Positions 1,425-35,256 of a stretch of DNA of 64,000 nucleotides are shown one piece after another. The stretch is from a virus (Duplodnaviria > Heunggongvirae > Uroviricota > Caudoviricetes). Position numbers and translations under genes: made by a program. The stretch lies in the IMG/VR virus record IMGVR_UViG_2548876947_000004; one strand, given 5' to 3'. A model generated the notes under the pieces. The model worked only from the letters and a program-made list of their open reading frames with translations. It was not told where the DNA came from and did no database searches. The first letter of the stretch is position 1. Each line of letters opens with the position of its first letter.

Positions 1425-1859
1425 TTATGCTGTAGTCGTGTTTATGGCCATAACTGCGGTATATGTTTTGCCCACATACAGCGAGTCCTCCTGGACACAA
1501 ATAATGGCGATTGGCTTGTTCTCGTTATCCAGAACAACCAGAGTGTTGAATGGGTAGTTTTTCCCTTCCTGCAACTGGCTTTGATCAAGGTCCATTCGGA
1601 CAGTAATTATCCCACCTGAGTAGGTTGGCACGAGGTTGATGGTACAAAATTGGCTGGTCAGTTCTGCCAGATCGAAAGCCTTTGGCAGTTCTCCAATCTC
1701 ATAAGTGCCATCTCCTTTCTTAGTAACCAGAGAACTGGTACCGAAAACGGCCTTGCTGATTAAAAATCGAGAGCCTTTGTTAATGGACGATTCAGCGCGC
1801 CGCTGATAGTAATAGTCCAACAACTGACTCTTATAGAGGTTTGTTGAGACGTCAGACAT
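1425..1859 (-). CDS. Tail-fibre-associated structural protein (144 aa), position of P1 gene R
   Basis: Complete ORF immediately upstream of the fibre gene on the same strand; assignment by position only. Confidence 0.4.
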   Translation of the reverse strand: MSDVSTNLYKSQLLDYYYQRRAESSINKGSRFLISKAVFGTSSLVTKKGDGTYEIGELPKAFDLAELTSQFCTINLVPTYSGGIITVRMDLDQSQLQEGKNYPFNTLVVLDNENKPIAIICVQEDSLYVGKTYTAVMAINTTTA

Positions 1860-1937
1860 GATTTTCCCTAATCAATGTTGTGAAGCCTCATTGTAAGAGA
1901 AGTAACTTGTCACCCCGCCCTGCGGACGGGGTGATTG

Positions 1938-2777
1938 TCAGGCGTCGCTATCCAGCAACAAATCATCTGCGCGGGTGCGATCAAACGTAGGTGTCGCTTT
2001 CACAATAGTGCCACCAGGCGTTGCGGTGATCGGGGCGCTAATCGACGTAACTCCAGTAAGCGAAGTTGTATCCGAAGTTTCAAACCAGCAGAATGCTTTT
2101 TCGGTATCAGAAATCTCGTTCAAAGTGATCATGTCGGCCTGTTCATTTACAACAACCGACAAATAGAGCGTAAGCCCATCAAACACTATATGCAGTGGCA
2201 GTAGAGGCTTTACGAACTGATTAAACTTTCTGAGAATTTCTTCTGTAATTGCGGACTGATCTATCGTGCCAGTAATACCCATTGTCCGGGCCAGGTCGTT
2301 TATGGGAATACTGATCATCCCTCTGGAAGTCAGAAACATCTCGCCGAATGTGCCGCCGGTAGTCTCCAATGTGCTTTCTGGTATTAGAACTGTGCCATAG
2401 GGATGACGCTCAAGGTCCACCGGTGCATATATCGGATCCCATAAAACAGAAATACCGTTAAATTCGCGGTAAATTGTCTGGTTTATAGGACGTTCAGTTC
2501 CCTTAAAGTGGATCTCATCAAGCCGCTGTTGTAACAACATCGGAACGGAAGATGAGTTCGAGGTTCTGATAGTAAAGAACTGGCCAAGTTCATTTGTCCT
2601 GGTCTCCAGATCCTCCTTGCTCATGGAGAAAATAGACTTCCGGTTGGTAATTCGCTCCAACCATGGGTCAACAAAGGTGTCCATCATTGACTGAATCAAA
2701 TCAGCCAATGATTTATAGAGCAATGACTTTTGCTTAGCTGATGTAAGCCGGTTATTAAACCAGGAACGCTGCATCAC
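1938..2777 (-). CDS. Baseplate/tail structural protein (279 aa)
   Basis: ORF in co-oriented structural block; stop overlaps start of upstream gene (translational coupling). Confidence 0.4.
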   Translation of the reverse strand: MMQRSWFNNRLTSAKQKSLLYKSLADLIQSMMDTFVDPWLERITNRKSIFSMSKEDLETRTNELGQFFTIRTSNSSSVPMLLQQRLDEIHFKGTERPINQTIYREFNGISVLWDPIYAPVDLERHPYGTVLIPESTLETTGGTFGEMFLTSRGMISIPINDLARTMGITGTIDQSAITEEILRKFNQFVKPLLPLHIVFDGLTLYLSVVVNEQADMITLNEISDTEKAFCWFETSDTTSLTGVTSISAPITATPGGTIVKATPTFDRTRADDLLLDSDA

Positions 2778-4207
2778 TCCTCCTCATACGAAATATTAAA
2801 GGTGGAGTTTTCTGTATCCAGATAAACGAAATCGTAAAAGCCGTTGGACTCATTCCACTCGACAAATTCCAGATAAAAGTCGCGGAAATAACCCAGCGTT
2901 TCGATAAACGCCCAAACGTCTTTTTTCTTAATCAGGATGTACTTCCCGACGCGGTTCGGATCAAAGAAAGTTGAGTCGCGCCCAAATTTTGTTTCCAGCG
3001 CCGACTTCAGCTCATCGGTCACATTCTCAATGGTCAGGCTTGCCGATATCCGTCCGGTGATGGTTATCTTAAATGGTAGTTTTCTGACCTCTTTATACGA
3101 GAATTTCTTGTTCAACTCATTCGGCACCTTCTTAAAGGCAGCCAGGATCATTTCTTCAAGCTCTGACTGGCTTTTATTTGGATGCCACCCTGAAATAAAT
3201 ATCTTATTGATATTCCGAACATTATAAGCACCATCTAATTTCTCTTGCCGGCCTTCGCCCCATGCCTTTACCCAGGACAGTCCCGGGATGTTACGCACCA
3301 GAAAATACGTATAGTCCCCGCCCCATACGACCTGATCATCATAGGCAAGGTAATATTGTGCACGGTTACGTGTGATCTCCGTTGTTTCGGCATCGGTACC
3401 TGCGGTTATAGGTGTCGTTGTCTTAACTGAAATCATATTAGCTAAATTAGCCGCAGAATCGACAGGCGTCAGGTTTTGGCCAGCAACCAGGGTTATATCG
3501 CCGTTGGTGCACCATACCTTAAGCGTAATGGTCGAGCCTTCTGGCGGTATTTGCCCAATTAGCCCATCACCGAATCGAACCCCCAACTGCTCGGATGGTT
3601 TATAAAACTCAACGTAGACCTGGCTTTTACTACCGGCTAACCGGAACATAGTGCTGGAAGACCACTGCGTGGTCTTACCATCGGTCGTCACGAATACTTC
3701 CAGCTTATAGCAGACAGCAGTGAGAGCCTTTGATAACACGACTTCCAGAAATTCTTTGGCTGCCGTAACGGTATATGTCACCTCCTGGATTTCCAACTGT
3801 GCCACTTCTACCGTACCGGTGCCGTCAACCAACCTGCATACATCCATAGTCATGTAAGGATACTGGTCGTCAGATATTAAAGGCATGTTTTTGGGGATTA
3901 CCGCTGGGGCATCTTCACTTGTGGCGGTGATCTCAATCATCCCCGATGACGGTGTTGGCTTGGTACCAACGTAACTATTCGTTTCTGCCGCTGCCAGGAT
4001 AGAAGAACGCCGCGTCGCGGTCGATATAAAGCCTTCAGCCAGCGCCGCATCGGCATACTGAAAGCACCTGTAGACAATCTGGGTAATAAACAATGTCAGC
4101 ATCGAGACAAATTGAGAGCCGACAAACTTCGACCAGAATGAATCTTTCTCGACAAGCTCTTCAAACTCTGCACGAATACTGTCTTTAGTAGGTGTTGTTT
4201 TACTCAT
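2774..4207 (-). CDS. Baseplate structural protein (477 aa)
   Basis: Long ORF, 4-nt overlaps with both neighbours; position between small baseplate protein and fibre genes. Confidence 0.4.
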   Translation of the reverse strand: MSKTTPTKDSIRAEFEELVEKDSFWSKFVGSQFVSMLTLFITQIVYRCFQYADAALAEGFISTATRRSSILAAAETNSYVGTKPTPSSGMIEITATSEDAPAVIPKNMPLISDDQYPYMTMDVCRLVDGTGTVEVAQLEIQEVTYTVTAAKEFLEVVLSKALTAVCYKLEVFVTTDGKTTQWSSSTMFRLAGSKSQVYVEFYKPSEQLGVRFGDGLIGQIPPEGSTITLKVWCTNGDITLVAGQNLTPVDSAANLANMISVKTTTPITAGTDAETTEITRNRAQYYLAYDDQVVWGGDYTYFLVRNIPGLSWVKAWGEGRQEKLDGAYNVRNINKIFISGWHPNKSQSELEEMILAAFKKVPNELNKKFSYKEVRKLPFKITITGRISASLTIENVTDELKSALETKFGRDSTFFDPNRVGKYILIKKKDVWAFIETLGYFRDFYLEFVEWNESNGFYDFVYLDTENSTFNISYEEE

Positions 4208-4563
4208 AGCACCACGTCCTGTGTGATAGTTATATCCCTGATACGAATGGATATTTTCAACTTATCAAAAGCATCTCCCTCGGCTACTGACAAGCCAGAA
4301 ATCGGTATGTCGGGTAAATCTACCGTCAGTTTTTGCAAAAGCATTGCTTCAACCGCAATTTGAACATGCGACAAGTTGGTCGGTTCGTGTTTAAACTGCG
4401 GTAAAACATTGCCCCATGACGGATCTCCGTATACCTCACCCTGATAAGTGTTTAGCCACTCATATAAACGAGCGCCCCAGGCCTCCTCCTGGGACTCATA
4501 CGTTTTTACGCCGGATAACTCCAGCGTCAGCAAAGGATCAATTTCGTTATTGTTGGCCATCAA
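4204..4563 (-). CDS. Small baseplate protein (119 aa), possibly gp25/GPW-like
   Basis: Size and position immediately downstream of tape-measure gene; weak resemblance to baseplate wedge proteins. Confidence 0.35.
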   Translation of the reverse strand: MMANNNEIDPLLTLELSGVKTYESQEEAWGARLYEWLNTYQGEVYGDPSWGNVLPQFKHEPTNLSHVQIAVEAMLLQKLTVDLPDIPISGLSVAEGDAFDKLKISIRIRDITITQDVVL

Positions 4564-28352: not shown

Positions 28353-28369
28353 ATTGCTCTAATGAATAT
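28353..28369 (+). promoter_or_regulatory. C1 operator-like site upstream of the rdgC-like/methyltransferase operon
   Basis: ATTGCTCTAATGAATAT, 14/17 consensus match. Confidence 0.5.
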
Positions 28370-28725: not shown

Positions 28726-29623
28726 GCACTGGAAAAACATTACTATTTATAAACTTTCTCGTGAGGCGGATCTGACCGACTTAGAAGATAAAAAGAAAAT
28801 GATCCTTTTCACGCCATGCGGTAGTCAGGATATGGCCAAGTTCGGTTTTGTATCGCCATTTGGTGATAATTCCGAAGTTATCGCTATGCATGGAAATGGT
28901 TTTATCCTTGTTGAAGCAAAGCGCGAAACAAAAATTCTTCCCCCGCCGGTTATCCAGCGAGCTATTCAAGAAAAAATTGAAAAACTTGAGCAAGAACAAG
29001 CGCGTAAACTGAAGAAAACAGAGAAGGACTCCCTGAAAGACGAAGTTCTGCATTCTCTTCTGCCACGGGCTTTTTCAAAGTTTTCTGTTATCCAGGCGAT
29101 CTACGACGGTTCAACTAAACGTATCTATATCAATGCCAGCGCGCGGCAGGCAGAGGATATGCTCGCGCTTATGCGTAAGTCTCTGGGTTCTCTTCCTGTT
29201 GTTCCCCTGAGTGTTGAAAATCCCATTGAATTAACGCTGACCGACTGGGTACGTGATGGTAGTGCTCCACAGGGATTTCAAATGGGGGATGCGGCAGAAC
29301 TTAAGGCAGTGCTTGAGGATGGCGGTATTGCCCGAGTGAAAAAGCAGGATTTGGGAAGCGATGAAATTTCCACACACCTGGAAGCTGGCAAGCTCGTCAC
29401 TAAGTTGGCACTCGACTGGCAGAACCGCATTAAATTTACACTGGACCATAACTTCAGCCTTACCAGCGTCAAATTTGCGGATGAATTGCTTGAGCAGAAC
29501 TCTGATATTGATAGTGAAGATGTAGCGCAGCGACTGGACGCAGATTTCTTCCTGTTGACCAGTGAAATTTCGTGCCTGGTTGATGCTCTGGTAAATGCCC
29601 TTGGTGGAGAGGCTAAGCAGTGA
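28718..29623 (+). CDS. hrdC: RdgC-like recombination-associated protein (301 aa)
   Basis: N-terminus [19 protein letters not shown]...[17 protein letters not shown] matches the RdgC family signature; start at internal ATG 28718 rather than the ORF-track start. Confidence 0.8.
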
Positions 29624-32600
29624 AAGAGCTGTGCTATGGATCTGTTTGCAGTGGAATTGAAGCTGCGAGTATTGCTTGGGAACCTTTGGGTATGCGTCCG
29701 GCCTGGTTTGCTGAAATTGAGCCTTTTCCATCTGCCGTTCTTGCGCACCGTTGGCCTCATGTCGCCAATCTTGGCGACATGACAAAACTTGCCAAAAAAG
29801 TCCTGGCAGGGGAAATCGAATCCCCTGATGTGCTGGTGGGAGGGACACCATGTTTTGCCGCGGGCCATATGGTTCTTTGTAAAAATGGTTATAAACCAAT
29901 AGAAGATGTTTGCCCAGGCGATTACGTAGTCAGTCATCTCGGGCGGTTACAACAAGTAAAAAGAGTTGGTTCAAAAATAGCTAATACGGGGTTACTTAAT
30001 GCCGTTGGGCAGCCTTTAGGTATAAGAACAACCAATGACCATCCCTTCCTGGCGGTTCGGTGGAAAGCCCAAAACACCCGGAAAAATGGCACATATTTTA
30101 AGAGAGAGTTGTTGTCTGAACCGGAATGGCGAGCAGCATGTGATATGCCGGGATATCAATGGTGTGCTCTAACTAATTTCAATATTGCATCTCCAGATAT
30201 TTGTTCTCGGTTCTTGTCTGAAGAACAGGCTATGTATCTTGCGGGCGCTTATGTTGGCGATGGATATATTAGGAGATGGAGAGGTAAATCTAAGAAGGCG
30301 GTTGTTTTTGGCATAAATTGCCAGAAATTGAGAAAGTTTCATTGCCGCATACCAGAAAACATATTTTCCGTGGCAAGCGAAATCCGAGGGAGCATCAAAG
30401 TAACCTTGAATGATACGTGTTATGCCAATTGGCTTAATGAACATTTTGGCGAGTTAAGCCATGCTAAGCGTATCCCTGCATGGGTGATGTCGCATCCATT
30501 GCGTCATGTGTTTTTACAAGGCTATCTTGATACTGATGGGACACCAAGTGGTAAAGCGGGATTTAGAATTAATAGTGTTAGTCCTGCGCTTGCTTGGGGC
30601 GTTGCGGAGTTGTCACAGACTTGTGGTTATGTTTCTTCGGTCAGCTTTATTGAAGTTGAGCCCAAAAAAGTGATTGAGGATCGCGTGGTAAATCAACGGA
30701 ATTATTATCAGGTAACAATCTGCCCGCAGAAATTGTCACGTAAATCAAGATTGGCTCATGGAATGCTTTTACGAACAGTCAAAGAGTTTAAATCGGTAGG
30801 CCTAGATACTGTATACAACATAGAAGTCGAAGGTGATCATTCCTATATCCTCAATGGTGCGGTGGTCCATAACTGTCAGGCATTCAGTATCGCTGGATTA
30901 CGTGGTGGGCTTGATGATGAGCGTGGCGCGCTAACTTTAAAGTATGTGGAGCTTGCAAATGCAATTGACGACAAACGGGCTGAGTCATTTCTCAAACCAG
31001 CCGTTATCGTCTGGGAAAATGTCCCAGGAGTCTTGTCATCGGCAGATAACGCCTTCGGATGTTTCCTTGCCGGATTGGCTGGAGAAGATGCGCCATTCGA
31101 ACCAGGTGATCGACCTGAATCAGGAAAAAGTAACGCGTTCTGGCGGTGGGATGTCAAAACCGGTTGCCATGCTCCAAAGTGGCCGCAGTGTGGTTGTATT
31201 TATGGACCGCAGCGAAAAGTGGCCTGGAGAATCCTTGATGCCCAATACTTCGGAGTGGCACAACGACGCCGACGCGTGTTTGTTGTCGCAAGTGCTCGAA
31301 CAGACCTCGATCCCGCAACGGTACTTTTTGAGTTCGAAGGCGTGCGCCGGAATATTGCGCCGAGCCGAAAAAAGAAGGAAATCGCTTCCGCCATTATTGC
31401 AAATGGCGCTGCAATCAGTGGCGAAAGCCTAAATCCATGCCTACACGCTGACATGCCACCCGGTATGAAATCGACGAAAGCCGTAAACGCTTTCAGGATG
31501 GCAGCATTTGGGGAATATATTGACGATGAAACCGCATCGACAGTAAAGGCAAGAGATTTTAAAAATGCCACTGATCTTGCCGTTTTTAGCAGCACAGGAG
31601 CAGGTTTTTGGTCAGAAGGGCATGGTACATTGCGGGCACGTGAGCAAGAAAGCCATGAGCATCTTGTTACATTGGCTTTTCCTGAGCGTATAAGCGGTAC
31701 ACAACATGCTGCAACTAAGAATACTTCACCATCTCTAATGGCTAAAAATCCAACAGCTGTTTGCTATGAAGTAAGAAACGCAGAAGTAGCTGTCCGCCGT
31801 CTTACCCCTGTCGAATGTGAAAGGCTGCAAGGTTTTCCTGATGGGCATACGTTGATCCCTACGGAAAAGCGTAAAAAAGTTAATTCAGATGAACTGGCAT
31901 ATCTTCGCAATCACTATCCAGATTTAAGCGAAGAAGAGGCCGCGATGCTTGCAGCTGACGGACCGCGTTACAAAGCGATCGGCAATAGTATGGCGATACC
32001 AGTAATGTGCTGGATTGGCGATCGGATTACTAAGGCCGTATGCCGGCAGAAAGAAGGAAGTGAAACAAAAGAGCGAAAAGTTAAACCAGCGGCAGAATTC
32101 GAACGGTCCATATTCAAATGGGCTGGTGGAAAATTTGGTGTTCTGGAACAAATCTTTCGCTATTTGCCAGAAGGGAAGCGCCTGATTGAACCTTTCGTTG
32201 GTGGCGGAGCTGTCTTCATGAATGCCGGATACCAGGAAAATCTGCTAAATGATGTGAATGCTGACCTGATTAACTTTTACAAGACTCTGCAACGCGAGGC
32301 GCATTCACTTATCACTCTGGCACATCGTTTCTTCCTGGACTACAACACCCAGGAGGGATTCCTGGCAGTACGGAATGCGTTTAACAAACAAGTCTATGAT
32401 GATTTACATCGCGCAGCGGCGTTTTTGTTCCTGAACCGACATTGTTTTAATGGATTGACGCGCTACAACCAGGCCGGTGAGTTCAATGTCGGTTATGGGA
32501 AGTATAAAACTCCGTATTTCCCATTACAGGAGATGGAAGCCTTCCTCGGTGCGGAAGGGCGGTCTGAGTTTGTATGCGGTGATTTTGCAGCAGTGATTGA

Positions 32601-32907
32601 AGCTGCCGGAGAAGGAGATGTCATCTTTTGCGATCCGCCGTATGAACCGCTCCCCAATACAGAGGGGTTCACGAACTATTCCGGTCATGACTTTAAGTTT
32701 GAAGAGCAAAAACGCCTGGTGTCTCTGTTGACGGATGCTCATCGCCGAGGTGCAAAGGTACTCATTACTAACAGTGGCGCGCCAAACATCAGAGAGCTTT
32801 ATCAGGACAGTGGCTTCAGAGTGGAACCTCTCTTTGCCAGACGTTCTGTGTCTTGTAAGGGAGACACTCGTGGTGTTGCTCATGACGTTATGGCAATATT
32901 GCTCTAA
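29620..32907 (+). CDS. dmt: Bifunctional DNA methyltransferase (C5-cytosine domain followed by Dam-like N6-adenine domain), interrupted by an intein; 1095 codons
   Basis: C5-MTase motifs GGTP|CQAFS (IV, split by the intein), [20 protein letters not shown]; then Dam-like KWAGGKF...[10 protein letters not shown] and DPPY. GTG start overlaps the rdgC-like stop. Confidence 0.85.
29851..30873 (+). mobile_element. Intein with LAGLIDADG homing-endonuclease domain (341 codons) inside the methyltransferase gene
   Basis: Begins with Cys (CFAAGHMV...), has block-B-like TTNDHPF, two LAGLIDADG-type motifs ([21 protein letters not shown]), ends ...[20 protein letters not shown] followed by Cys+1; removal restores GGTP-CQAFS. 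Confidence 0.8.
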
Positions 32908-32924
32908 TAAATTTATTAGTGTAA
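32898..32924. promoter_or_regulatory. Bipartite C1 operator (two overlapping sites in opposite orientation)
   Basis: ATTGCTCTAATAAATTT (perfect 17/17) overlapping the reverse complement of ATTACACTAATAAATTT; immediately after the methyltransferase stop. Confidence 0.7.
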
Positions 32925-33582
32925 TATCGCCTCAATGAATCGTGATTTATAGAGCGATTTAGCTGTTAGCCGCGACAGGCGCGGCGGCAAGTATGGCGGG
33001 GTAGTGACTCCTTCCCCCTCATGACGCCGAGTTGCCAGGTTGACCATACGCCTAAGTGGCAACACCGAAGTGCGTTACGAGCTTCCAGTTTGCCCATCTT
33101 CGGGTGGGCGTTTTTTTCAGGGTTTTCGTCATGGTTAGCGACTTTGCGGCGGTTTAGAAACTGACCATTAAAGTAAATGCAAACGATGATCTGATGATGG
33201 TAGCGGCCTAAGAAGCCAGATGCCACGGGGTATGAGTCGTCACCCGTCAAAAAATCGACCGCAGAGTGTCCCCGTCTGTGTATTAGGGAACGGGGAGGCA
33301 CAACAGGTAAGGGCGCTGGTGTGATTAACCAGATGAACGAGAAGGGGCCATCTGTTGGTCAGCGTCCTTTCCTGTTGCGTCTTCTTTTCAGCGTAACAGC
33401 GGTGCTTAACAGCACTTTGGGTACAGTTCCACGAATTTACGGGTATATCCCGTCATGCTGAAGGCGCTAATCACGCTGGAAGCCAGGGTTATGCATCCCC
33501 TGTTACCGAATTGCAGTCAGGGCGCGGTGCGCCGAAAAGCATACGGAGGTGGAAGCCCTCGCCGGAGACGTACCCGGCAAGT

Positions 33583-33658
33583 GATGGTGTAGCTCAGTGG
33601 TTAGAGCGGTTGACTGTTAATCAACGGGTCGATGGTTCAAATCCATCCACCATCGCCA
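33583..33658 (+). tRNA. tRNA-Asn (anticodon GTT)
   Basis: Cloverleaf folds by hand: acceptor GATGGTG/CACCATC, D-arm GCTC-AGTGGTTA-GAGC, anticodon loop CTGTTAA, T-arm GATGG-TTCAAAT-CCATC, discriminator G, CCA encoded. Confidence 0.85.
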
Positions 33659-33660
33659 AT

Positions 33661-33736
33661 GCCGGTTTAGCTCAGTTGGTAGAGCGCCTGCCTTGTAAGC
33701 AGGATGTCAGCGGTTCGAGTCCGTTAACCGGCACCA
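33661..33736 (+). tRNA. tRNA-Thr (anticodon TGT)
   Basis: Acceptor GCCGGTT/AACCGGC, D-arm GCTC-AGTTGGTA-GAGC, anticodon stem CCTGC/GCAGG with loop CTTGTAA, T-loop TTCGAGT, CCA encoded; 2 nt after tRNA-Asn. Confidence 0.85.
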
Positions 33737-35180: not shown

Positions 35181-35256
35181 GGCCCCTTAGCTCAGTGGTT
35201 AGAGCTGGCGACTCATAATCGCACGGTCACCGGTTCAAGTCCGGTAGGGGCCACCA
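35181..35256 (+). tRNA. tRNA-Ile2-like (anticodon CAT, lysidine type; could alternatively be read as Met)
   Basis: GGCCCCTTAGCTCAGTGGTTAGAGC...CTCATAA...GGTTCAAGTCC...AGGGGCCACCA closely resembles bacterial tRNA-Ile(CAU) as I recall it; one mismatch at the top of the anticodon stem. Confidence 0.75.

What the first reader, a model, noticed from the sequence alone, without database searches (positions are those of the whole stretch)
29851..30873. LAGLIDADG intein inserted exactly at the catalytic Pro-Cys-Gln motif of the C5-cytosine methyltransferase domain
The 1095-codon ORF carries C5-MTase motifs ([27 protein letters not shown]) followed by a Dam-like N6-adenine domain (KWAGGKF, DPPY). Motif IV is split: ...LVGGTP | CFAAGHMV...(341 codons)...ILNGAVVHN | CQAFS.... 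The inserted block has intein hallmarks: N-terminal Cys, a TxxH-type block B (TTNDHPF), two LAGLIDADG motifs ([21 protein letters not shown]), terminal HN, and a Cys at +1 that is also the catalytic nucleophile of the methyltransferase. Deleting it gives a canonical GGTPCQAFS. I do not recall an intein in the P1 methyltransferase gene; I cannot check here whether this has been described. Cytosine methylation would depend on protein splicing, while the downstream Dam-like domain might work in precursor and product alike.
Basis: partly seen in the sequence, partly recalled or inferred. Interest (0 to 1): 0.72.

Follow-up and report, generated by a model that had tools for sequence, protein, structure and literature searches.

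The report
Intein in P1-type Dmt methyltransferase
A self-splicing protein element (an intein carrying a homing endonuclease) sits exactly in front of the catalytic cysteine of the cytosine-methyltransferase half of the phage P1-type Dmt enzyme; it is a genuine but textbook-type intein, present in about a quarter of P1-like plasmids and apparently never pointed out.

Summary
Window 29851-30873 (341 codons) is an in-frame insert in the 1095-codon dmt gene. Reference phage P1 Dmt (754 aa) is colinear and lacks exactly these 1023 nt; removing them restores GTP|CQAFS.

The insert has every sequence hallmark of a class-1 intein with a LAGLIDADG endonuclease, and its model matches PI-SceI-type inteins best.

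It is a presence/absence polymorphism: about 127-133 of 498 dmt-carrying PLSDB plasmids, 152 of 5426 complete E. coli genomes, and phages RCS47, Ro157c2YLVW and OP279344 carry it. All 36 copies examined are intact.

Homologous inteins (26-55% identity) occupy the same P|C-Q site in C5 methyltransferases of other bacteria, many phages and giant-virus MAGs. Splicing and nuclease residues are near-invariant among them.

Flanking haplotypes show graded tracts linked to the intein, as homing would leave.

Splicing, cleavage and homing are inferred, not shown. Ten full-text searches found no description of it; sources call the protein "Dam family methyltransferase".

Verdict: real, new member of a known kind, moderate interest.

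The parts
28353..28369 (+). C1-repressor operator (Odmt) in the promoter region of the uhr-hrdC-dmt operon. It is context only: it places dmt, and so the intein, under lytic-cycle control.
   Evidence: Operator consensus match with 2 mismatches. The region aligns with the annotated Odmt/Pdmt of NC_005856.
29620..29850 (+). N-extein (Dmt residues 1-77): C5-methyltransferase motif I ([11 protein letters not shown]) through the Pro of motif IV (LVGGTP).
   Evidence: In intein-free P1 Dmt, PF00145 matches as one continuous stretch, residues 8-135.
29851..30873 (+). Intein, 341 codons, 38.3 kDa: Hint splicing domain with an inserted LAGLIDADG endonuclease domain.
   Evidence: Exact gap against P1 Dmt. 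Profile matches. AF2 model pLDDT 89.6; Foldseek hits PI-SceI 2.6e-17, TliVMA 2.4e-16, PI-PfuI and PI-PkoII. GC is 42.9% against 48.9% in the exteins.
29851..29853 (+). Cys1, the intein's N-terminal nucleophile (block A).
   Evidence: Invariant in 41/41 same-site inteins and 36/36 P1-type copies.
30028..30045 (+). Block B, TTNDHP (Thr61 and His64 form the TxxH motif).
   Evidence: T61 and H64 are invariant in 41/41.
30208..30735 (+). LAGLIDADG endonuclease domain, approximately intein residues 120-295. The boundaries are taken from the model's secondary structure.
   Evidence: Alpha/beta elements at model residues 134-302. Foldseek matches to I-DmoI, I-SceI and I-OnuI. PF14528 E=6e-9.
30238..30264 (+). 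LAGLIDADG motif 1, LAGAYVGDG (catalytic Asp137).
   Evidence: D137 in 38/41 and G138 in 41/41.
30514..30540 (+). LAGLIDADG motif 2, LQGYLDTDG (catalytic Asp229).
   Evidence: D229 and G230 in 41/41.
30811..30846 (+). Block [13 protein letters not shown].
   Evidence: V321 in 41/41 and D329 in 38/41. Aligns with blocks F/G of the Spl DnaX mini-intein 7cfv.
30862..30873 (+). Block G, VVHN (penultimate His340 and terminal Asn341).
   Evidence: H340 in 39/41 and N341 in 41/41. TIGR01443 is above its cut-off.
30874..30876 (+). Cys+1. It is the first C-extein residue and also the Cys of C5-methyltransferase motif IV (P-C-Q).
   Evidence: Invariant in 41/41. Its role as the methyltransferase's catalytic nucleophile rests on established knowledge of C5 methyltransferases.
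30874..32100 (+). C-extein, C5-methyltransferase part: motifs IV (CQAFS), VI (WENVPGV), VIII (QRRRRVF), a variable target-recognition region at about 31366-31791, and motifs IX/X (GNSMAIPV).
   Evidence: The variable region is defined by the alignment with OP279344.
32101..32898 (+). C-extein, Dam-type N6-adenine methyltransferase domain (KWAGGKF ... DPPY).
   Evidence: PF02086 1.6e-56. TIGR00571 scores 248 bits against a cut-off of 114.85.

Best explanation
Window 29851-30873 encodes a class-1 intein: a Hint splicing domain with a LAGLIDADG homing-endonuclease domain inserted in it. It lies in the dmt gene of a P1-like phage-plasmid, between the Pro and the catalytic Cys of C5-methyltransferase motif IV. 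dmt is translated as a 121.6-kDa precursor in which the motif IV loop is interrupted. Cys1 attacks the preceding peptide bond. The thioester is passed to Cys+1, Asn341 cyclises, and an S-to-N shift ligates the exteins. The products are the 83.3-kDa, 754-aa Dmt with an intact GGTPCQAFS and a free 38.3-kDa intein. C5 methylation should therefore require splicing, whereas the distal Dam domain is structurally independent. The released endonuclease, or the precursor, most likely cuts intein-less dmt alleles at the P|CQ-coding sequence when two P1-like genomes share a cell, and repair copies the intein plus a short flanking tract. Because the operon is controlled by the C1 repressor, this would happen during lytic growth. 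Shown here: the precise insertion, the fold and motifs, the polymorphism, conservation at the same site, and the flank mosaicism. Inferred: splicing, cleavage, homing and timing. The confidence of 0.8 refers to 'a genuine, splicing-competent intein'. Within that, I put current endonuclease and homing activity at about 0.55-0.6.
For: Precise insertion: there is an exact 1023-nt gap against P1 Dmt, and motif IV is restored on removal. PF00145 matches across the site as one continuous stretch in the intein-free protein.

Profiles and fold: LAGLIDADG_3 1.2e-7, intein_Cterm 28.8 bits against a 15.6 cut-off, Hint_2 28.0 against 28.4. The AF2 model has pLDDT 89.6 and pTM 0.87. The top 16 PDB matches are all intein endonucleases (PI-SceI 2.6e-17, TliVMA, PhoVMA, PI-PfuI, PI-PkoII), followed by free LAGLIDADG enzymes.

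Conservation: 41 same-site inteins of 26-55% identity keep C1, T61, H64, K206, D229, N341 and C+1 in 41/41, H340 in 39/41, and D137 and D329 in 38/41. The window copy has all of them.

Intact copies: 36 of 36 P1-type copies have no stop codons and keep C1, HN and C+1. Polymorphic codons are 15 synonymous-only against 14 amino-acid-changing, roughly dN/dS 0.3.

Sporadic distribution: about 127-133 of 498 dmt-carrying plasmids and 152 of 5426 E. coli genomes, one copy each, all copies inspected lying in dmt. It occurs with two different target-recognition modules.

Flanks: an intein-linked haplotype runs from -4 to about +159, with recombinant break points before +23, at +65/+105 and at +116/+125. 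No empty site equals the excision junction.

Same site elsewhere: homologous inteins occupy it in Metarhizobium, Lachnospira and Mannheimia, in about 48 of 50 IMG/VR loci, and in giant-virus MAGs.

Composition: intein GC is 42.9% against 48.9% in the exteins.
Against: No experiment was done, so splicing and cleavage are unproven. Hint_2 and Intein_splicing fall just below Pfam's gathering scores. The P1 clade has Asp or Glu at residue 277, where 40/41 relatives have Gly in a conserved I-x-G-R-x-V-N-Q hairpin, which could weaken the nuclease. dN/dS of about 0.3 rests on few substitutions and is only moderate constraint. General recombination among P1-like plasmids could also produce the flank mosaicism. 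The invariant A at -1 in all intein-bearing copies fits a single insertion event followed by recombination as well as it fits repeated homing.
Confidence: 0.8

Rival explanations
1. It is a splicing-competent intein whose endonuclease is inactive or decaying. It entered P1-type dmt once and has since spread only by vertical descent and ordinary homologous recombination between P1-like plasmids. This is a sub-variant of the best explanation; it differs only on whether the nuclease is active.
For: A at -1 and -4 is fixed in all 36 intein-bearing copies, and one dominant flank haplotype accounts for 24/36. All P1-type copies are at least 95% identical. Gly277 is replaced by Asp or Glu in a hairpin conserved in 40/41 relatives. 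About half of the polymorphic codons change the amino acid. P1-like plasmids are visibly mosaic, for example in their swapped target-recognition modules.
Against: Both catalytic Asp residues, Lys206 and the R278/N281/Q282 hairpin residues are intact in all 36 copies. There are no frameshifts or stops in any of the 36. The graded, insertion-anchored downstream tracts are what co-conversion produces. An intermediate frequency of about 26% is typical of an element that is still cycling.
Confidence: 0.25
2. It is a non-splicing, intein-derived insertion that permanently disrupts the C5 active site. These Dmt proteins then act only as Dam methylases, which is the function P1 needs for packaging.
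For: C5 activity of P1 Dmt is only annotated as 'perhaps'. The documented requirement for Dmt is GATC methylation (PMC12707154). Some relatives, such as Mannheimia P0008, keep the intein although the methyltransferase is truncated just after it.
Against: All splicing residues are retained in 36/36 copies and in 41 distant relatives. The C5 motifs downstream of the intein (VI, VIII, IX, X) stay intact and in frame. A dead insert would be expected to accumulate indels, and none was seen.
Confidence: 0.07
3. It is not an intein at all: an assembly artefact, an in-frame free-standing homing-endonuclease gene, or a group I intron with an ORF.
For: In-frame LAGLIDADG domains outside inteins have been reported in actinophage methylases (PMC9957025).
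Against: The same 1023 nt recur at the same position in more than 130 independently assembled plasmids and 152 genomes. The endonuclease domain is flanked on both sides by Hint blocks A/B and F/G, and the whole unit folds like PI-SceI. The reading frame is continuous, with Cys1 and HN|C boundaries.
Confidence: 0.01

Closest known systems
PI-SceI (yeast VMA1 intein) and the archaeal TliVMA, PhoVMA, PI-PfuI and PI-PkoII inteins
   Same: Same two-part architecture: a Hint splicing domain interrupted by a two-motif LAGLIDADG endonuclease. Cys1, TxxH, HN and a Cys+1 nucleophile are all present. These are the best structural matches (E 2.6e-17 to 1.9e-9).
   Different: Only 12-17% identity. This intein is shorter (341 aa, against about 360-540). 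The host protein and organism differ. No biochemical data exist for this one.
Inteins of actinobacteriophage DNA methylases (Kelley et al. 2016, PMC5050341; Gosselin et al. 2023, PMC9957025)
   Same: LAGLIDADG-type inteins that sporadically invade orphan phage DNA methyltransferases, with evidence of transfer between divergent host genes.
   Different: Those hosts are N6/N4-type methylases (N6_N4_Mtase) of actinophages. This host is a C5-cytosine methyltransferase domain of an enterobacterial phage-plasmid, and the insertion is directly before the catalytic Cys.
Uncharacterised same-site inteins in other C5 methyltransferases (Mannheimia haemolytica 'Hint domain-containing protein / DOD-type homing endonuclease', Metarhizobium album, Lachnospira hominis, IMG/VR phages, giant-virus MAGs)
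   Same: Homologous (26-55% identity), with an identical insertion point xP|C-Q and the same conserved residues. Together with the window's element they form one intein allele family.
   Different: The host methyltransferases are different and not fused to Dam. Some are mini-inteins without an endonuclease (P0019, P0022), and some sit in truncated genes. None is described in the papers I could search.
Reference phage P1 Dmt (NC_005856, YP_006537)
   Same: The exteins are the same protein: 754 aa, a C5-methyltransferase plus Dam fusion, in the same operon under C1 control. The flanking DNA is about 97% identical at nucleotide level.
   Different: It lacks the intein. Its motif IV reads VWGTPCQ, with Trp in place of Gly.

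Membership tests
Intein (class 1, Hint superfamily) | In-frame insertion that is absent from orthologues and whose removal restores a conserved host motif. | tested here: met
   P1 Dmt lacks exactly 1023 nt, and GTP|CQAFS is restored on removal.
Intein (class 1, Hint superfamily) | N-terminal Cys or Ser nucleophile (block A) and a TxxH motif (block B). | tested here: met
   Cys1, Thr61 and His64 are present, and each is invariant in 41/41 same-site relatives.
Intein (class 1, Hint superfamily) | C-terminal blocks F and G ending in His-Asn, followed by a Cys, Ser or Thr at +1. | tested here: met
   [12 protein letters not shown]...VVHN|C is present. TIGR01443 scores 28.8 bits against a cut-off of 15.6.
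Intein (class 1, Hint superfamily) | Hint fold. | tested here: met
   The AF2 model has pLDDT 89.6. The top Foldseek hits are PI-SceI and VMA inteins at E<=1e-10. The Pfam Hint_2 score is marginal, 28.0 against 28.4.
Intein (class 1, Hint superfamily) | Autocatalytic protein splicing that gives ligated exteins and a free intein. | not testable with these tools
   This needs expression followed by SDS-PAGE or mass spectrometry. The predicted masses are 121.6 kDa for the precursor, giving 83.3 and 38.3 kDa products.
LAGLIDADG homing endonuclease (two-motif, monomeric) | Two LAGLIDADG motifs, each with a catalytic acidic residue, in an alpha-beta-beta-alpha-beta-beta-alpha fold. | tested here: met
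   LAGAYVGD137G and LQGYLDTD229G are present. PF14528 scores 6e-9. There are structural matches to I-DmoI and I-SceI.
LAGLIDADG homing endonuclease (two-motif, monomeric) | Site-specific cleavage of the intein-less allele, and homing. | not testable with these tools
   Only indirect support exists: about 26% presence, same-site alleles in divergent hosts, and graded flank tracts. The Gly277 to Asp/Glu change is a caveat.
C5-cytosine DNA methyltransferase (PF00145) - the exteins | Conserved motifs I, IV (PCQ), VI (ENV), VIII (QxRxR) and IX/X in order. | tested here: met
   PF00145 scores 2.3e-29 with the intein present and 1.6e-35 in intein-free P1 Dmt. The motifs were located. TIGR00675 scores 97.0 bits, slightly below its 100.65 cut-off, in the interrupted protein.
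C5-cytosine DNA methyltransferase (PF00145) - the exteins | Demonstrated 5-methylcytosine formation. | not testable with these tools
   The P1 annotation says only 'perhaps at C5 cytosine'.
Dam-family N6-adenine methyltransferase - C-terminal domain | D12-class domain with a DPPY catalytic motif. | tested here: met
   PF02086 scores 1.6e-56. TIGR00571 scores 248 bits against a cut-off of 114.85. DPPY lies at residues 1005-1008.

The most novel reading that the evidence does not exclude
The intein may be more than a passenger. Because the methyltransferase's catalytic Cys is also the splice-junction nucleophile, splicing rate could gate C5 methylation. Splicing could be sensitive to redox state, for instance through a Cys1-Cys+1 disulfide, or to temperature. 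Dam methylation by the same polypeptide would start at once, so the phage would get a post-translational timer or switch for anti-restriction methylation. In addition, the endonuclease could act as a weapon between competing P1-like phage-plasmids by cutting intein-less rivals during co-infection (marker exclusion).
Probability: 0.1. Interest if true: 0.7.

Novelty: new member of a known kind. Interest (0 to 1): 0.4.

Why it matters
P1 is a classic model phage and transduction tool, and P1-like phage-plasmids are common carriers of resistance genes in Enterobacteriaceae. An apparently intact intein with a homing endonuclease occurs naturally in about 3% of complete E. coli genomes and about a quarter of P1-like plasmids. 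That would give a genetically tractable system in E. coli itself for studying natural protein splicing and intein homing. Hundreds of sequenced intein-bearing and intein-less alleles are available for following the homing cycle in a population. It also matters for annotation. These proteins are uniformly labelled "Dam family methyltransferase", which hides both the C5 domain and the intein. At least one laboratory "P1" genome (OP279344) carries the intein while the reference does not. Finally, the P|C-Q site of C5 methyltransferases emerges as a widely used intein insertion point in phages and giant viruses. I found no description of this site in the literature I could search.

Tried and rejected
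- The search for related loci with the 15-sequence alignment A1 failed because it had no conserved stretch. A closer 5-sequence alignment, A2, worked.
- All ten full-text paper searches returned nothing on an intein in P1 Dmt or in any C5 methyltransferase. Most 'intein' hits were purification tags or reference-list entries.
- The RCS47 genome paper is not held.
- No supplementary files are held for Novikova et al. 2016, and its main text does not mention methyltransferases. I therefore cannot exclude a listing in InBase, in supplements or in subscription journals.
- The partial intein matches H62/H63 and H122/H123 looked like possible decayed or alternative inteins. They are dmt genes truncated by IS elements or rearrangements.
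- I considered and rejected an assembly artefact, a group I intron and a free-standing endonuclease ORF (see the rival explanations).
- Intein and flank divergence were compared as a test for recent spread. Intein divergence (0-1.4%) is not clearly lower than flank divergence (0.2-4.5%), so the test was uninformative.
Full report
**1. The observation**

The ORF listing gives a single ORF, 29620..32907 (+), 1095 aa. In its translation CFAAGHMV begins at residue 78 and VVHN ends at residue 418. The next codon, 30874-30876, is the Cys of CQAFS. Pfam finds four things on the ORF:
- a D12/Dam domain at residues 834-1067 (1.6e-56);
- a C5 DNA_methylase domain split into three stretches (2.3e-29);
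- LAGLIDADG_3 at residues 298-361 (1.2e-7, above the gathering score);
- Hint_2 at residues 77-126 (28.0 bits against a gathering score of 28.4).

NCBIfam adds intein_Cterm (TIGR01443) at 28.8 bits against a cut-off of 15.6, and Dam (TIGR00571) at 248 bits.

**2. It is a precise insertion in P1 dmt**

The gene is 98% identical at nucleotide level to dmt of phage RCS47 and about 97% identical to dmt of reference P1. It lies in the P1 operon uhr-hrdC-dmt, followed by tRNA-Asn and tRNA-Thr. Reference P1 Dmt is 754 aa and aligns end to end with the window protein. The only gap coincides exactly with residues 78-418...DVLVWGTP|[10 protein letters not shown].... In the intein-free protein, PF00145 matches across the site as one continuous stretch, residues 8-135.

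**3. It has the anatomy of an intein**

The sequence hallmarks are:
- Cys1;
- TTNDH at residues 60-64 (TxxH);
- LAGAYVGDG at residues 130-138;
- LQGYLDTDG at residues 222-230;
- [12 protein letters not shown] at residues 321-332;
- VVHN at residues 338-341, followed by Cys+1.

An AlphaFold2 model of Dmt residues 68-428, built on a 15-sequence alignment, has mean pLDDT 89.6 and pTM 0.87. Foldseek against the PDB returns intein endonucleases as the first 16 hits: PI-SceI 2.6e-17, TliVMA 2.4e-16, PhoVMA, PI-PfuI and PI-PkoII. Free LAGLIDADG enzymes (I-DmoI, I-SceI, I-OnuI) and mini-inteins follow. A sequence search of the PDB aligns blocks F/G with the Spl DnaX mini-intein and aligns the endonuclease core with PI-PkoII.

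**4. Distribution**

The 1023-nt element is present at 95% identity or more in:
- phages RCS47, vB_EcoM-Ro157c2YLVW and OP279344, the last being a 'P1 del res del mod' laboratory isolate;
- 133 PLSDB plasmids of E. coli, E. albertii, E. fergusonii, Salmonella and Shigella;
- 152 of 5426 complete E. coli genomes, one copy each (two in one genome), 148 on plasmids.

Of 498 plasmids carrying dmt, 127 cover at least 80% of the query and so carry the intein. The rest are intein-less. The intein occurs with two different target-recognition modules, giving Dmt of 1095 and 1013 aa. Intein-less genes come in at least four lengths. Every source names these proteins 'Dam family site-specific DNA-(adenine-N6)-methyltransferase'.

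**5. The copies are maintained**

I extracted 36 intein-bearing copies: the window, plasmids, genomes and IMG/VR contigs. None has a stop codon. All have Cys1, T61, H64, D137, K206, D229, D329, H340, N341 and a TGT codon at +1. Nine of these copies were compared codon by codon. Fifteen polymorphic codons are synonymous-only and 14 change the amino acid. That gives a dN/dS of roughly 0.3, a rough figure based on few changes. Intein GC is 42.9% against 48.9% for the exteins.

**6. The same site is used far beyond P1**

A protein search with the intein found C5 methyltransferases with a homologous insert at xP|CF...HN|CQ:
- a metagenomic protein at 51% identity;
- a Mannheimia haemolytica protein at 47%, named 'Hint domain-containing protein / DOD-type homing endonuclease' by its sources;
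- GC-rich proteins at about 32%;
- two mini-inteins that lack the endonuclease (P0019, P0022).

The genome scan added Metarhizobium album (48%), Lachnospira hominis (40%) and an uncultured Clostridia MAG at the same site. More distant relatives sit in unrelated host proteins. The IMG/VR scan found 181 relatives. Of 50 loci outside the P1 group that I inspected, about 48 have the intein at G-x-x-P|C...HN|C-Q-x-x-S, and these include giant-virus MAGs. I aligned 41 same-site inteins of 26-55% identity to the window copy. Conservation is as follows:
- 41/41: P-1, C1, T61, H64, K206, D229, G230, R278, N341 and C+1;
- 40/41: N281 and Q282;
- 39/41: H340;
- 38/41: D137 and D329.

These are the residues needed for splicing and for LAGLIDADG catalysis, plus a conserved I-x-G-R-x-V-N-Q hairpin. 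I infer that this hairpin contacts the conserved target DNA. The window copy matches the consensus at all but three highly conserved positions. The notable exception is Asp277, or Glu in 2 of the 36 P1-type copies, where 40/41 relatives have Gly.

**7. Traces of mobility**

I compared 7 intein-bearing and 8 intein-less alleles over 600 nt upstream of dmt and 700 nt past the insertion site.
- The base immediately 5' of the insertion differs without exception: Pro codon CCA with the intein, CCT without it.
- A block of variants from -4 to about +159 is linked to the intein.
- Polymorphisms further out are shared between the two classes.

In the larger set of 36 intein-bearing copies, A at -1 and -4 is invariant, and 32 carry the linked downstream haplotype. 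The four exceptions switch to the intein-less haplotype before +23, between +65 and +105, or between +116 and +125. Graded tracts anchored at the insertion point are what co-conversion during homing would leave. Ordinary recombination could also produce them. A 40-nt query representing the precise-excision junction of the commonest intein-bearing haplotype matched 362 empty sites in PLSDB. None matched exactly, and the best had one mismatch. I therefore saw no sign of recent precise loss. Two intein-less plasmids (L034, L035) carry the intein-linked haplotype from -4 to +116. I cannot say whether they represent the ancestral recipient allele.

**8. Mechanism**

The best-supported reading is a canonical class-1 intein. 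The steps are:
1. The 121.6-kDa precursor undergoes an N-S acyl shift at Cys1.
2. The acyl group is transferred to Cys+1 (trans-thioesterification).
3. Asn341 cyclises, assisted by His340.
4. An S-N shift ligates the exteins.

The products are the 83.3-kDa Dmt and a 38.3-kDa intein (masses; the chemistry is established knowledge of class-1 inteins).

In C5 methyltransferases the motif IV Cys is the catalytic nucleophile and sits in a loop next to the Pro. This too is established knowledge. A 341-residue insert between Pro and Cys should therefore abolish C5 activity until splicing occurs. That step is inference. The Dam domain is more than 400 residues away and is an independent Pfam domain, so activity in the precursor is plausible but untested.

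The operon keeps the C1 operator Odmt (window 28353-28369). Precursor and endonuclease would therefore be made on derepression, which is also when two P1-type genomes can meet. This is inference.

**9. Comparison with what is known**

The architecture and chemistry are those of PI-SceI-type inteins. Inteins in phage DNA methylases have been reported, but in N6/N4-type enzymes of actinophages (PMC5050341; PMC9957025). I found no paper describing an intein in P1 Dmt, in P1-like plasmids, or at the P-C-Q motif of any C5 methyltransferase. The search covers open-access full text only. InBase, supplements and subscription journals could not be checked. Automated annotation has already flagged Hint/DOD domains on at least one same-site relative.

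**10. Verdict**

The element is a new member of a known kind, and possibly the first noted representative of a widespread C5-methyltransferase motif IV intein allele. An intein at a catalytic motif of a phage DNA enzyme is not surprising to a specialist. Its value is practical: it offers a natural intein and homing-endonuclease system in E. coli and P1 with rich population data, and it corrects the annotation. Interest 0.4.

Noticed in passing
L001 (NC_005856) about nt 1720; equivalent to window 29839: Reference P1 Dmt reads LVWGTPCQAFS. A Trp replaces the conserved Gly of C5-methyltransferase motif IV. Only this one of the 8 intein-less alleles sampled has it. It might impair C5 methylation in the reference laboratory strain, whose C5 activity is annotated only as 'perhaps'.
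   Followed up: partly
window about 31366-31791: The region between motifs VIII and IX of the C5 domain (the target-recognition region) is modular among P1-like plasmids. Gene lengths are 2019, 2265, 2424 and 2589 nt without the intein, and 3042 and 3288 nt with it. This implies swapped cytosine-methylation specificities.
   Followed up: partly
L002 (OP279344.1) 1501-4542: A laboratory phage deposited as 'P1 del res del mod' (host MG1655 Z1) carries the intein and a different target-recognition module from reference P1. Over the intein and its flanks it is identical to an Escherichia sp. MOD1-EC7003 contig (L005). Laboratory 'P1' stocks are therefore not uniform at dmt.
   Followed up: partly
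P0008; L079 and L080 3001-4020: Mannheimia haemolytica has a same-site intein (47% identity) that is intact, but its C5 methyltransferase ends about 20 residues after the intein (...VVHN|CQSDKGGTVKASGGGFEWRE). The cluster is seen on 578 contigs. It appears to be an intact intein in a truncated host gene.
   Followed up: no
L108, L110, L112, L113, L116, L117, L119, L120 (IMG/VR GVMAG and other contigs), match at about 3001-4100: Giant-virus metagenome-assembled genomes encode C5 methyltransferases with homologous inteins (28-31% identity) at the same P|C-Q/N site.
   Followed up: partly
window 30679-30681 (intein residue 277): P1-type inteins have Asp (34/36) or Glu (2/36) where 40 of 41 same-site relatives have Gly, in the conserved I-x-G-R-x-V-N-Q hairpin of the endonuclease domain. 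The endonuclease may be weakened or retargeted.
   Followed up: partly
L034 (NZ_CP100548.1) and L035 (NZ_MG288678.1), dmt nt 227-347: Two intein-less plasmids carry the otherwise intein-linked haplotype from -4 to +116 around the empty site, but have T rather than A at -1. They could be the ancestral recipient allele or a product of intein loss. This is unresolved.
   Followed up: partly
window 12657, 14317, 28353, 32898, 32909, 42770, 48535, 60864, 63979: There are nine matches to the P1 C1-repressor operator consensus with 2 or fewer mismatches, against 0.04 expected by chance. They include Odmt (28353) and the divalent Oban operator overlapping the 3' end of dmt (32898-32925).
   Followed up: partly
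window 33583-33658, 33661-33736, 35181-35256: tRNA-Asn(gtt), tRNA-Thr(tgt) and tRNA-Met(cat) genes lie downstream of dmt. The Asn-Thr pair directly downstream of dmt matches phage P1.
   Followed up: no
E. coli ST2747 chromosomes NZ_CP007392-CP007394, about 2.17-2.21 Mb: Five of the 153 places where the intein occurs in complete E. coli genomes are on chromosomes rather than plasmids, and three of the five are in ST2747 assemblies. This suggests chromosomally integrated P1-like elements.
   Followed up: no
L041 (NZ_CP070875.1) 3001-3306; H64 (NZ_CP057105.1): Some dmt copies are disrupted by insertion sequences. In one, IS1 lies just after nt 307 of the gene, leaving only the first 76 nt of the intein. 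In another, an IS91-family element lies inside an intein-bearing dmt.
   Followed up: yes
P0021, P0023: More distant relatives of this intein (about 24% identity) sit in HNH-domain proteins at ...C|CF...VHN|CQ[YF]CG. The +1 Cys there appears to belong to the HNH zinc-binding motif.
   Followed up: no
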